Shown here: one piece after another, positions 42,261 to 43,560 of the stretch
Numbering within the stretch: the first letter of the stretch is position 1
Layout of the letters: the number at the start of each line of letters is the position of its first letter
Source of the DNA: Escherichia coli
GTDB taxonomy: Bacteria > Pseudomonadota > Gammaproteobacteria > Enterobacterales > Enterobacteriaceae
Assembly: GCF_044324785.1 (NCBI RefSeq)
Contig: NZ_CP172127.1
Length of the DNA stretch: 64,000 nt
Strand: one strand, 5' to 3'
Notes under the pieces: model-generated
What the model was told of the DNA's origin: nothing
Databases searched by the model: none
The model's input: only the letters and a program-made list of their open reading frames with translations
Translations under genes and position numbers: made by a program

Positions 42261-42269
42261 AAATATGCG

Positions 42270-42550
42270 CTGTGCAGGGTTTTTGCTGTGCGCAGCGTGA
42301 TGCGCTTTAAGATATCGTGTTAATCTGCTTTCGCCAGCAGTGGCAATAGCGTTTCCGGCCTTTTGTGCCGGGAGGGTCGGCGAGTCGCCGACTTAACGCC
42401 AGTAGTATGTCCATATACCCAAAGTCGCTTCATTGTACCTGAGTACGCTTCGCGTACGTCGCGCTGACGCGCTCAGTACAGTTACGCGCCTTCGGGATGG
42501 TTTAATGGTATTGCCGCTGTTGGCGCCTCTTTTGGCCGCCGTGATGTGGA
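42270..42550 (+). ncRNA. retron msr/msd non-coding region (template for msDNA); boundaries approximate
   Basis: Highly structured non-coding DNA directly upstream of a retron-type RT: palindromes GCGCAGCGTGATGCGC, GTCGGCGAGTCGCCGAC, GTACGCTTCGCGTAC and GCGCTGACGCGC; no credible ORF. Confidence 0.5.
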
Positions 42551-42557
42551 GAGTGGA

Positions 42558-43517
42558 ATGGATGCTACCCGGATAACCCTTCTGGCGCTCGATTTGTTCG
42601 GCTCGCCGGGCTGGAGCGCCGATAAAGAAATACAGCGGCTGTATGCGCTCAGTAATCATGCCGGACGCCATTACCGACGCATTATTCTTTCTAAACGCCA
42701 CGGTGGTCAGCGGCTGGTGTTAGCCCCTGATTACTTGCTCAAAACCGTACAGCGCAACATTCTTAAGAACGTTCTTTCACAATTTCCGCTTTCCCCTTTT
42801 GCTACAGCCTACCGACCAGGTTGCCCAATTGTCAGCAACGCGCAGCCTCACAGCCAACAGCCACAAATACTGAAACTCGATATCGAAAACTTTTTCGATA
42901 GTATTAGCTGGTTACAGGTCTGGCGTGTGTTTCGCCAGGCCCAGTTGCCACGTAATGTGGTAACCATGCTGACCTGGATTTGTTGTTATAACGACGCGTT
43001 ACCGCAGGGGGCACCAACTTCGCCAGCCATTTCCAATCTTGTGATGCGCTGTTTTGATGAGTGCATCGGGGCATGGTGCCAGGCACGAGGAATTACCTAC
43101 ACCCGCTACTGCGATGACATGACTTTTTCAGGTCACTTCAATGCCCGCCAGGTTAAAAATAAAGTGTGCGGATTGTTAGCGGAGATGGGCCTGAGCCTCA
43201 ATCAACGCAAAAGCTCCCTGATAGCTGCCTGTAAGCGCCAGCAGGTAACCGGGATTGTTGTTAATCACAAACCACAGCTTGCCCGCGAAGCGCGGCGGGC
43301 GCTGCGTCAGGAAGTACACTTATGCCAAAAATATGGCGTCATTTCGCATCTTAGTCGTCGTGGTGAACTTGATCCTTCATGCGATCTCCATGCACAGGCA
43401 ACGGCGTATCTTTATGCTTTGCAGGGAAGAATAAACTGGCTATTGCAAATCAATCCTGAGGATGAGGCCTTTAAACAGGCGAGGGAAAGTGTAAAGCGAA
43501 TGCTGTTGGCATGGTAA
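42558..43517 (+). CDS. ret: retron-type reverse transcriptase (Ec107-like)
   Basis: 319-aa frame from MDATRITLL; RT motifs including YCDD (YTRYCDDMTFSG) and retron-specific VTG (QQVTGIVVNHKP); occupies the pyrE-slmA interval. Confidence 0.8.
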   Translation: MDATRITLLALDLFGSPGWSADKEIQRLYALSNHAGRHYRRIILSKRHGGQRLVLAPDYLLKTVQRNILKNVLSQFPLSPFATAYRPGCPIVSNAQPHSQQPQILKLDIENFFDSISWLQVWRVFRQAQLPRNVVTMLTWICCYNDALPQGAPTSPAISNLVMRCFDECIGAWCQARGITYTRYCDDMTFSGHFNARQVKNKVCGLLAEMGLSLNQRKSSLIAACKRQQVTGIVVNHKPQLAREARRALRQEVHLCQKYGVISHLSRRGELDPSCDLHAQATAYLYALQGRINWLLQINPEDEAFKQARESVKRMLLAW

Positions 43518-43560
43518 GAAAAGCGTCAGGCAGACGTTTCTGCCTGAACGTTTGGGAGAA

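What the first reader, a model, noticed from the sequence alone, without database searches (positions are those of the whole stretch)
42261..43560. Compact retron (msr/msd plus 319-aa RT) filling the pyrE-slmA intergenic space, with no adjacent effector gene
A 1.3-kb insert sits between pyrE (stop 42260) and slmA (stop 43561). Its 5' 0.3 kb is non-coding and dense in palindromes, and its single ORF carries YCDD and the retron-specific VTG motif (QQVTGIVVNHKP). This is the locus and approximate size reported for retron Ec107. Characterised retrons act with a co-encoded effector, but the RT here is unfused and both neighbours are core genes, so any effector would have to act in trans or be absent.
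Basis: partly seen in the sequence, partly recalled or inferred. Interest (0 to 1): 0.7.

Follow-up and report, generated by a model that had tools for sequence, protein, structure and literature searches.

The report
Retron Ec107, a known effector-less retron
The 1.3-kb insert between pyrE and slmA is an allele of the long-known E. coli retron Ec107 (Retron-Eco5), a reverse transcriptase plus a structured RNA that makes small single-stranded DNA; it does lack a partner effector gene, but that has already been published.

Summary
A 1,300-bp segment (42261-43560) lies between the stops of pyrE and slmA. It holds about 0.3 kb of structured non-coding DNA and one 319-aa reverse transcriptase (RT) with NAxxH, YCDD and VTG motifs.

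The RT matches PADLOC's RT_Ec107-like model end to end (437.8 bits). It is 96% identical to the E. coli cluster member labelled UniRef Q05804. The insert replaces the roughly 34-bp palindrome of empty-site strains, as published for Ec107.

The msr/msd fold is supported by covariation across nine sequences. The RT (dN/dS about 0.13) and the non-coding RNA (99% or more identical in 359 of 381 genomes) are both under purifying selection.

There is no second conserved ORF. PyrE is the ordinary housekeeping enzyme. No neighbour family recurs across 80 related loci.

Mestre et al. [quoted passage not shown]

New here: relatives sit at fixed sites between convergent genes in three Enterobacterales lineages (pyrE|slmA, cyaY|cyaA, cdaR-like|garD-like). 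RT divergence roughly tracks that of the flanking core genes. This points to long vertical residence and a selected function that needs no neighbouring effector.

The parts
41619..42260 (+). pyrE (orotate phosphoribosyltransferase), the upstream core gene. Context only, not part of the retron.
   Evidence: ORF. RefSeq annotation of the homologous loci. The same PyrE protein accession, WP_000806177.1, occurs in strains with the retron and without it. PyrE has no PADLOC hit.
42269..42296 (+). Hairpin at the 5' boundary of the insert (GCTGTGCA / TGCGCAGC), just after the pyrE stop. Probably the 3' hairpin of the pyrE transcript.
   Evidence: Helix 1: 8 pairs, 2 with compensatory changes, 97.9% of cells paired, across the six pyrE|slmA-site sequences. 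No T-run follows it. Its function is inferred.
42318..42326 (+). Candidate extended -10 promoter, TGtTAATCT (consensus TGnTAnnnT). It would place the transcript start at about 42332-42334, the first bases of a2.
   Evidence: TG is present in 8 of 9 sequences, and T42321, A42322 and T42326 are invariant across three host lineages. The generic sigma-70 scan found no two-hexamer promoter on the plus strand. Inference only; the start site was not mapped.
42332..42348 (+). a2 inverted repeat, the 5' arm of the long-range stem.
   Evidence: The 17-bp helix with 42509-42525 has compensatory changes in 9 of 17 pairs and 98% of cells paired.
42349..42349 (+). Predicted branching (priming) guanosine, whose 2'-OH primes msDNA synthesis.
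   Evidence: This G lies immediately 3' of a2. ATAG at 42346-42349 is invariant in all nine aligned sequences. The G is unpaired in the single-sequence MFE fold. Its role is inferred from general retron architecture and was not tested.
42332..42406 (+). msr, the RNA part of msDNA. The 3' end is approximate. It contains hairpins 42353-42373 and 42374-42394.
   Evidence: Helices 4 and 5 each have 4 pairs with compensatory changes. The 3' limit is my inference.
42402..42508 (-). msd, the template for the 107-nt msDNA; the DNA product has minus-strand sequence. It contains a long imperfect hairpin, 42418-42496. The limits are approximate.
   Evidence: Helices 6-9. I assume that synthesis starts next to a1 and runs 107 nt, because the number in the name Ec107 gives the msDNA length. 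The limits are inferred, not measured.
42509..42525 (+). a1 inverted repeat, the 3' arm of the long-range stem.
42558..43517 (+). ret, the retron reverse transcriptase: 319 aa with NAxxH (N94-H98), YCDD (184-187) and VTG (230-232).
   Evidence: PADLOC RT_Ec107-like, 437.8 bits. Pfam RVT_1 over residues 46-233. Motifs invariant in the nine-sequence alignment. 305 of 319 residues identical to the Q05804 cluster member. dN/dS 0.12-0.15.
43526..43547 (-). Hairpin at the 3' boundary of the insert (TCAGGCAGA / TCTGCCTGA). On the minus strand a T-run follows it, so it is terminator-like for the convergent slmA.
   Evidence: 9 pairs, tail CGCTTTTCTT on the minus strand. Its function is inferred.
43561..44157 (-). 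slmA (nucleoid occlusion factor), the downstream convergent core gene. Context only.

Best explanation
This is a chromosomal allele of retron Ec107 (Retron-Eco5). It is a minimal, stand-alone msr-msd-ret cassette that replaced the terminator palindrome between pyrE and slmA.

Mechanism:
1. An RNA probably starts at about 42332 from a conserved extended -10 element. Read-through from pyrE is also possible. This step is inferred.
2. The RNA folds so that a2 (42332-42348) pairs with a1 (42509-42525). The fold is shown by covariation.
3. The 319-aa RT binds the msr hairpins and uses the 2'-OH of the invariant G42349 as primer. It copies the msd region leftwards from about 42508 for about 107 nt. 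This is inferred from the anatomy and from published work on Ec107.
4. Host RNase H1 removes the template and helps set the product length, as published for Eco5.

The cassette encodes nothing else. Because both the RT and the non-coding RNA are under strong purifying selection, I take the msDNA-RT complex itself to be the selected product. The element has also stayed at the same site across genera. I therefore think it most likely works with a factor encoded elsewhere in the genome rather than through any neighbouring gene.

My probabilities:
- It is Ec107-type: about 0.97.
- It is functional and selected: about 0.85.
- It acts with an unlinked partner: about 0.5.
- That role is anti-phage defence rather than a domesticated stress or stationary-phase role: about even.
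For: Identity:
- PADLOC RT_Ec107-like, 437.8 bits, full length.
- 96% identity to the E. coli cluster that contains UniRef Q05804.
- The locus, YCDD motif and replaced palindrome match the literature.

Non-coding RNA:
- Fold z-score -6.15.
- 96% of cells paired.
- 26 of 67 pairs have compensatory changes, against 10.3 +/- 2.3 in shuffles (0 of 500 reach it) and 2-6 when partners are slid.
- G42349 is invariant.

Selection:
- RT dN/dS is 0.12-0.15 within Escherichia.
- The 194-nt non-coding RNA is 99% or more identical in 359 of 381 genomes, while the whole insert is at most 96.9% identical and RT dS is 0.12-0.21.

Stand-alone status:
- RVT_1 is the only Pfam domain, and the protein has the length of the Ec86 RT.
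- No second ORF is conserved.
- No neighbour family occurs in more than 8 of 80 related loci, and those that recur are housekeeping genes in shared synteny.

Long residence:
- RTs at 88%, 72% and 69-70% identity lie in the same pyrE|slmA gap in a cryptic-clade Escherichia, an unnamed enterobacterium and Pseudocitrobacter species.
- RT dS is about 1-2.5 times the dS of the flanking genes.

RNase H1 dependence of the Eco5 product length is reported in PMC8989520.
Against: - No msDNA was observed here; production rests on the literature for Ec107.
- The promoter is only a conserved motif, and the generic sigma-70 scan found nothing on the plus strand.
- Rfam has no matching family, so the RNA assignment rests on my own alignment of only nine sequences.
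- The msr and msd end coordinates are inferred.
- No partner acting in trans was identified. Only 64 kb of this genome could be examined.
- Mestre et al. report that most hosts of these orphan retrons lack homologues of known retron effectors.
- Only 7% of complete E. coli genomes carry the element, so any benefit is dispensable or specific to a niche.
Confidence: 0.9

Rival explanations
1. PyrE, a phosphoribosyltransferase immediately upstream on the same strand, is the retron's functional partner. This would mirror the PRTase-like effectors of the sister type III-A retrons.
For: The second-best PADLOC models are RT_III-A (311.5 bits). [quoted passage not shown] The pyrE-retron adjacency is kept across Escherichia, Pseudocitrobacter and one more enterobacterial lineage.
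Against: - PyrE matches no PADLOC defence model, including the retron PRTase-like effectors, at E <= 0.001.
- The same PyrE protein accession, WP_000806177.1, occurs in strains with the retron and without it, so there is no co-adaptation.
- pyrE is present in 5,424 of 5,426 genomes but the retron in only 381.
- Relatives in Leminorella, Pragia, Budvicia and Firmicutes have no adjacent PRTase.
- Conserved synteny at this locus explains the adjacency.
Confidence: 0.04
2. It is a decaying remnant: a type III-like retron that lost its effector and persists neutrally without function.
For: No effector is present. Its distribution in E. coli is patchy at 7%. Mestre et al. suggest the branch lost its associated protein.
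Against: - All 12 RT genes examined are intact and keep YCDD and VTG.
- dN/dS is 0.12-0.15, and 0.04-0.10 between genera.
- The non-coding RNA is nearly invariant within E. coli.
- The non-coding RNA keeps its pairs through compensatory changes between genera.
- Persistence while synonymous sites saturate is not expected of a neutral remnant.
Confidence: 0.05
3. It is a conventional anti-phage, abortive-infection retron whose toxin or effector is simply encoded elsewhere in the genome.
For: All characterised retron types are tripartite defence systems. Purifying selection shows the cassette is used.
Against: - Mestre et al. state that most host genomes with these orphan retrons lack homologues of known retron effectors.
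- The element is not in a defence island or mobile element. Its neighbours at all three insertion sites are core genes.
- The nearby integrative island has no PADLOC system, and in strain N12 it occurs without the retron.
- Vertical, site-fixed inheritance is atypical for defence systems.
- This rival overlaps the partner-in-trans part of my best explanation and cannot be excluded with these tools.
Confidence: 0.3
4. The ORF is a non-retron RT (group II intron maturase, DRT/Abi-type RT or DGR RT) and the upstream palindromes are unrelated terminators.
For: There are weak hits to TIGR04416, Drt2 and Drt3a.
Against: Those hits lie far below their cutoffs (60 against 300, 56 against 390, 51 against 200). 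Retron models score 150-438 bits. The top hits among solved structures are all retron RTs. The upstream RNA has the a1/a2 architecture with covariation.
Confidence: 0.01

Closest known systems
Retron-Eco5 (Ec107) of E. coli (Herzer et al. 1992 and 1996, cited in PMC6868368 and PMC7736814)
   Same: The locus is the same (pyrE-slmA/ttk intergenic, replacing a roughly 34-bp palindrome). The insert is about 1.3 kb, and the RT is 319 aa with YCDD. PADLOC's RT_Ec107-like model matches over its full length. The RT is 96% identical to the UniRef Q05804 cluster member, and the non-coding RNA differs by 1 nt in 194 from most E. coli copies.
   Different: It is an allelic variant. There are 14 amino-acid differences from the Q05804-type sequence. 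The best nucleotide identity to any of 381 complete-genome copies is 96.9%. One base differs in msr hairpin 2, C instead of T at 42389.
Type III-A retrons (RT plus PRTase-like protein, with or without a winged-helix protein; Mestre et al. 2020)
   Same: These are the next-best RT models (RT_III-A, 248-311 bits). According to Mestre et al. they share RT clade 2.
   Different: There is no PRTase-like or winged-helix effector gene here. The adjacent PRTase is housekeeping PyrE, which matches no PADLOC model.
Retron-Eco1 (Ec86, type II-A), the best-characterised retron with solved structures
   Same: Ec86 is the closest solved RT (7v9u, E = 1.5e-37), with a similar length of 320 aa. The msr-msd-RT order and the a1/a2 logic are the same.
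   Different: Ec86 works with an adjacent nucleoside deoxyribosyltransferase-like effector as a toxin-antitoxin-like defence system. Ec107 has no such gene. Pairwise RT identity is only about 24% (supplement of PMC6868368).
Stand-alone (msr-msd)-RT cassettes of RT clade 11 (Actinobacteria; Mestre et al. 2020)
   Same: This is the other retron branch reported without an associated protein. Its taxonomic range is restricted, which suggests vertical inheritance.
   Different: It is a different RT clade in a different phylum. I did not examine it here.

Membership tests
Retron (msr-msd-RT retroelement) | An RT of the retron clade with the retron-specific motifs: NAxxH in region X, VTG, and YxDD. 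| tested here: met
   N94-A95-x-x-H98, Y184-C-D-D187 and V230-T-G232 are invariant in the nine-sequence alignment. 72 PADLOC retron RT models hit, the best at 437.8 bits. The top solved-structure hits are all retron RTs.
Retron (msr-msd-RT retroelement) | A structured non-coding RNA directly upstream of the RT, with a1/a2 inverted repeats enclosing msr and msd and a conserved priming G next to a2. | tested here: met
   The a2 (42332-42348) / a1 (42509-42525) stem has 17 bp, 9 of them with compensatory changes. G42349 is invariant. Over the whole structure 96% of cells pair, and 26 pairs covary against 10.3 in shuffles.
Retron (msr-msd-RT retroelement) | Production of 2'-5'-branched msDNA. | not testable with these tools
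   This is published for Ec107/Eco5 (reviewed in PMC6868368; RNase H1 effect in PMC8989520). It was not measured for this allele.
Retron-Eco5 (Ec107) specifically | Inserted between pyrE and slmA (ttk), replacing a 34-bp palindrome. | tested here: met
   The window compared with the empty site of strain HST04. All 381 copies are single and chromosomal. The five copies whose annotation was retrieved lie between pyrE and slmA.
Retron-Eco5 (Ec107) specifically | A 319-aa RT with a YCDD catalytic box and close identity to the reference RT. | tested here: met
   YCDD is present. The review names YCDD as the Eco5 variant. 305 of 319 residues match the cluster member carrying the UniRef label Q05804_ECOLX. 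That Q05804 is the original Ec107 entry is from my memory.
Retron-Eco5 (Ec107) specifically | An msDNA of 107 nt. | not testable with these tools
   The span from the base next to a1 (42508) back 107 nt ends at 42402, just 3' of the msr hairpins, which is geometrically plausible. This is inference only.
Tripartite retron defence system (types I-XIII: non-coding RNA + RT + effector) | A co-encoded or fused effector protein. | tested here: not met
   The RT has only RVT_1. No second conserved ORF exists in the insert. The neighbours are pyrE and slmA. No neighbour family recurs in 80 related loci. This agrees with Mestre et al..
Type III-A retron | An adjacent PRTase-like effector of clusters 67/113, with or without a winged-helix protein. 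| tested here: not met
   PyrE matches no PADLOC family at E <= 0.001. PyrE is identical in strains with and without the retron.
Group II intron RT/maturase | A score at or above the family cutoff on the RT/maturase model, and an intron RNA context. | tested here: not met
   TIGR04416 scores 60.2 bits against a cutoff of 300. No group II intron Rfam hit lies in 41500-44300.

The most novel reading that the evidence does not exclude
Ec107-type retrons are not mobile defence cassettes. They are ancient, vertically inherited residents fixed between convergent core genes in at least three Enterobacterales lineages:
- pyrE|slmA in Escherichia and Pseudocitrobacter;
- cyaY|cyaA in Leminorella;
- cdaR-like|garD-like in Budvicia and Pragia.

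The RT and the non-coding RNA are kept by strong purifying selection with no effector gene. On this reading the msDNA-RT complex has a host function that needs no dedicated effector, or it uses a universally conserved host protein as its effector. That would be a mode of retron action different from the toxin-antitoxin-like model.
Probability: 0.35. Interest if true: 0.7.

Novelty: already known. Interest (0 to 1): 0.25.

Why it matters
Ec107 is one of the few experimentally validated retrons with no known effector. It was left out of the study that established retrons as phage-defence systems, so what it does remains an open question.

The comparative evidence here sharpens that question without answering it:
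- The insertion site is fixed across genera.
- RT divergence roughly tracks that of the flanking genes.
- RT dN/dS is about 0.13.
- The non-coding RNA is nearly invariant within E. coli and covaries between genera.

Together these argue that the cassette is functional and long resident, not a remnant. That makes it a good model for a retron activity that needs no linked effector.

As a scan finding it is ordinary, a correct re-identification of a retron described in 1992. RefSeq labels the RT only as "reverse transcriptase family protein" and does not annotate msr/msd.

Tried and rejected
- **Rfam.** A permissive E-value scan of 41500-44300 gave no retron or msr hit, only chance hits to RyhB and MESTIT1_3. 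A gathering-threshold scan of the whole window also found nothing in the insert. Rfam has no model that detects this RNA, so I used my own alignment instead.
- **Promoter scan.** The generic sigma-70 scan found no promoter on the plus strand upstream of msr. I propose the conserved TGnTAnnnT motif instead, as inference.
- **PyrE against defence models.** PADLOC gave no hit for PyrE, so I rejected the PyrE-as-effector idea.
- **The neighbouring island as a source of a trans effector.** PADLOC on nine proteins of the 18.5-39.8 kb island gave only one weak PDC-S22 hit. Strain N12 has the island without the retron. I rejected a link.
- **Hidden or overlapping ORFs in the insert.** The 102-aa minus-strand ORF (42393-42701) and the 59-aa plus-strand ORF (43255-43434) are not conserved outside Escherichia. 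I treat them as spurious.
- **A second copy or target of the non-coding RNA elsewhere in E. coli genomes.** There is none; each positive genome has one place.
- **Original Ec107 papers.** PMC176584 and PMC178209 are not held. The exact published msDNA ends and promoter could therefore not be checked. What I say about them comes from reviews, or from memory where marked.
- **More recent work on Ec107/Eco5 function.** Searches found none.
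Full report
**1. The observation**

The pyrE ORF ends at 42260 and the convergent slmA ORF ends at 43561. That leaves a 1,300-bp gap, 42261-43560. In the K-12-type strain HST04 the same two genes are 36 nt apart. That spacer is the palindrome CGCCGGATGAaaagTCATCCGGCG plus a few flanking bases. One A is shared at each junction, so about 34 bp have been exchanged for about 1,298 bp.

The gap holds a single long ORF, 42558-43517. It starts at an ATG preceded by GGAG and encodes 319 aa, the same length as the RefSeq gene models at the homologous locus. 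Its translation contains YTRYCDDMTF and KRQQVTGIVVNHKPQ.

The 297 nt upstream hold a 17-bp long-range inverted repeat and several local hairpins. As RNA, 42325-42530 folds to -95.8 kcal/mol, 6.15 standard deviations below dinucleotide shuffles.

**2. What the protein is**

- PADLOC's model RT_Ec107-like matches residues 5-315 over positions 4-307 of its 307 (437.8 bits, E = 5e-132). RT_III-A models come next at 248-311 bits, followed by many other retron RT models.
- Pfam sees only RVT_1, over residues 46-233.
- In NCBIfam the best model is retron_St85_RT at 226.8 bits, just under its cutoff of 235. This explains the generic RefSeq name "reverse transcriptase family protein". The group II intron maturase model scores 60 against a cutoff of 300, and Drt2 and Drt3a are also far below their cutoffs.
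- Among solved structures the best matches are all retron RTs: Ec86 at 1.5e-37, then Ec83, Ec78, Ec67, Kva2 and Eco8. A group II intron RT reaches only 1.7e-7.
- The exact protein sequence is in the public collection as an E. coli protein on 288 contigs. Its 90% cluster has 646 members, one of which carries the UniRef label Q05804_ECOLX. The window protein matches that member at 305 of 319 residues. That Q05804 is the original Ec107 RT entry is from my memory.

**3. What the RNA is**

I aligned the upstream regions of nine loci:
- the window, EPEC E2348/69 and an 88%-RT Escherichia locus;
- a 72%-RT metagenomic enterobacterium;
- Pseudocitrobacter, two loci;
- Leminorella grimontii and L. richardii;
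- Pragia fontium.

RNAalifold recovers the classical retron layout (window coordinates):
- an a2/a1 stem, 42332-42348 with 42509-42525;
- two msr hairpins, 42353-42373 and 42374-42394;
- a long imperfect msd hairpin, 42418-42496.

On this structure 96% of cells form standard pairs. Twenty-six of 67 pairs show changes on both sides, against 10.3 +/- 2.3 in column shuffles (0 of 500 reach the observed value) and 2-6 when partners are slid by 1-3 columns. One caveat applies: the structure was derived from these same sequences, which favours it in the slid control.

The G immediately 3' of a2 (42349), within ATAG, is invariant in all nine sequences. It is the expected priming guanosine. Counting 107 nt leftwards from the base next to a1 gives an msd of about 42402-42508. 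This is inference from the name Ec107 and was not measured.

Rfam has no family that detects this RNA. A published "Ec107_like" covariance model does exist (10.64898/2026.05.14.725207).

A motif TGnTAnnnT at 42318-42326 is conserved across the three host lineages. It sits about 6-8 nt upstream of a2 and looks like an extended -10 promoter. The generic two-hexamer scan found nothing there.

The insert also carries a hairpin at each end. The first, 42269-42296, lies just after the pyrE stop and has two covarying pairs. The second, 43526-43547, reads as a terminator for slmA on the minus strand. The cassette thus appears to supply separate 3' hairpins for the two convergent genes in place of the shared palindrome.

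**4. Is there an effector?**

The RT has no extra domain and has the length of the Ec86 RT. No other ORF of 40 aa or more is conserved in position across the nine inserts.

PyrE is the only adjacent protein with a fold class known from retron effectors, but four observations argue against a role:
- PyrE matches no PADLOC model.
- The identical PyrE protein accession, WP_000806177.1, is annotated in retron-bearing strains and in retron-free strains.
- pyrE is universal, whereas the retron is in 381 of 5,426 complete genomes.
- Relatives outside the pyrE|slmA site have no PRTase next to them.

I clustered all ORFs of 90 aa or more within 2.5 kb of the RT in 80 species-level loci, whose RTs are 43-88% identical to this one. 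No family occurred in more than 8 loci. Those that recur are housekeeping genes in shared synteny, such as aromatic amino-acid biosynthesis genes.

The neighbouring 21-kb integrative island has no recognisable defence system. It occurs without the retron in strain N12.

**5. Evidence that the cassette is used**

All twelve RT genes examined are intact and keep YCDD and VTG. Pairwise dN/dS between the window and other Escherichia alleles is 0.12-0.14. Where dS can still be estimated between genera, dN/dS is 0.04-0.10.

Within E. coli the 194-nt non-coding RNA is 99% or more identical in 359 of 381 genomes, which is one mismatch from the window. The whole insert is at most 96.9% identical, and RT synonymous divergence is 0.12-0.21. 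The RNA is therefore far more conserved than neutral sites beside it.

**6. History**

RT relatives at 88% identity (cryptic-clade Escherichia), 72% (unnamed enterobacterium) and 69-70% (Pseudocitrobacter cyperus, vendiensis, faecalis and an uncultured species) all sit in the same pyrE|slmA gap.

In Leminorella grimontii and L. richardii (62% and 60%) the cassette lies between the convergent genes cyaY and cyaA. In Pragia fontium and Budvicia aquatica (54%) it lies between a cdaR-like regulator and a convergent garD-like dehydratase. Those flanking proteins are 82-90% identical between the two genera and their RTs are 68% identical.

Synonymous divergence of the RT follows that of the flanking core genes:

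| Comparison | RT dS | Flanking genes dS |
|---|---|---|
| window vs AR_0013 | 0.12 | 0.02-0.11 |
| window vs cryptic clade | 0.55 | 0.08-0.28 |
| the two Pseudocitrobacter-type loci | 0.53 | 0.38-0.60 |
| between genera | saturated | about 0.7-1.3 |

This fits long co-residence with the locus, combined with presence/absence polymorphism in E. coli. Allele exchange by homologous recombination cannot be excluded.

Mestre et al. wrote that only two of 59 RTs of this branch were next to such a phosphoribosyltransferase. In the data available now, the pyrE adjacency holds for every Escherichia and Pseudocitrobacter member I examined. It is best explained by conserved synteny.

**7. Comparison with the literature**

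- The review PMC6868368 describes Retron-Eco5 (Ec107) as having a YCDD catalytic core and as replacing 34 bases of a palindromic intergenic region, with no mobile element nearby. It also reports induction by phosphate starvation and stationary phase.
- Mestre et al. [quoted passage not shown] They discuss the adjacent orotate phosphoribosyltransferase, suggest the effector was lost, and leave open whether unknown effectors act in trans or whether such retrons were domesticated.
- Millman et al. excluded Ec107 from their phage-defence tests.
- Palka et al. recall that the Eco5 RT-DNA length changes without RNase H1.
- I found no later paper that assigns a function to Ec107.

**8. Verdict**

The window holds an allele of a retron characterised in 1992, and its orphan status was described in 2020.

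This analysis adds four things:
- covariation support for the non-coding RNA across genera;
- explicit evidence of purifying selection on both the RT and the RNA;
- three fixed insertion sites between convergent genes in Enterobacterales;
- arguments against PyrE as a partner.

These make the decaying-remnant reading unlikely. They make the cassette a reasonable model for retron function without a linked effector, but they do not reveal that function.

Noticed in passing
window 18,500-39,800 (integrase 38405-39742, minus strand): A roughly 21-kb integrative element lies between yicG/dinD and yicC. It carries a tyrosine integrase, a TOPRIM-DUF927 primase (29894-32653), an ash-family protein, an AntA/AntB antirepressor and four P22-like DNA-ejection genes (24473-29131), and GC content is lower. 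No tRNA gene marks the site. 29 complete E. coli genomes hold at least 80% of it. Only one weak PADLOC hit, PDC-S22, was found. Strain N12 has it without the retron. Cryptic-clade Escherichia loci L006-L008 also carry an integrase next to yicC, so this looks like an integration hot spot.
   Followed up: partly
window about 18,725 (dinD region 18,421-19,100): Compared with strain N12, dinD carries an internal deletion of about 547 bp, and no intact dinD ORF remains. dinD appears to be a pseudogene in this strain.
   Followed up: partly
window 35072-35159 and 35222-35299, minus strand: Rfam finds C4 antisense RNA (79.5 bits) and the isrK Hfq-binding RNA (67.1 bits) inside the island, in the region of the ash-family gene. 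These are typical of P1/P7/P4-like immunity regions.
   Followed up: no
window 50436-50474 (plus strand) and 53,000-59,000: A JUMPstart element (55.2 bits) precedes the operon that starts at 50524. A low-GC block (0.32-0.38) covers part of the genes downstream. From the gene order, with coaD and waaA seen in the homologous locus L001, this is presumably the waa LPS-core cluster. I did not check this.
   Followed up: no
window 42261-43560 compared with public genomes: The exact RT protein occurs on 288 public contigs, the longest 5.68 Mb. Yet the best nucleotide identity to any of the 5,426 complete RefSeq E. coli genomes is only 96.9%. This allele lineage therefore seems to be absent from that collection, and I could not tell why.
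   Followed up: partly
RefSeq annotation of the homologous loci (for example L001 6001-7302): The msr-msd region is unannotated in all listed genomes (features 'none'). The RT is named only 'reverse transcriptase family protein', apparently because it scores 226.8 bits against the 235-bit cutoff of NF038233. No NCBIfam model specific to Ec107 appears among the hits.
   Followed up: yes
L020 and L021, 6005-6442 (Bariatricus massiliensis and a related metagenome contig): In this Firmicutes relative (49% RT identity) a 145-aa MazG-family nucleotide pyrophosphohydrolase starts 5 nt after the RT stop on the same strand. It may be a lineage-specific partner. It does not recur across the 80 loci.
   Followed up: no
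L012, L016 and L023-L025 (Pseudocitrobacter); L013 and L026 (Leminorella): In these genera the 3' end of the RT gene overlaps the end of the convergent downstream gene (slmA or cyaA) by 4 nt. They have no 3' hairpin spacer like the one in E. coli, so the insert is more compact there.
   Followed up: no
L028 (Lachnospiraceae bacterium) compared with L015, L027 and L039 (Pragia, Budvicia): A Lachnospiraceae RT is 57% identical to the E. coli RT, which is closer than the Budviciaceae RTs at 54%. This hints at past transfer of this retron branch between gut Firmicutes and Enterobacterales.
   Followed up: no
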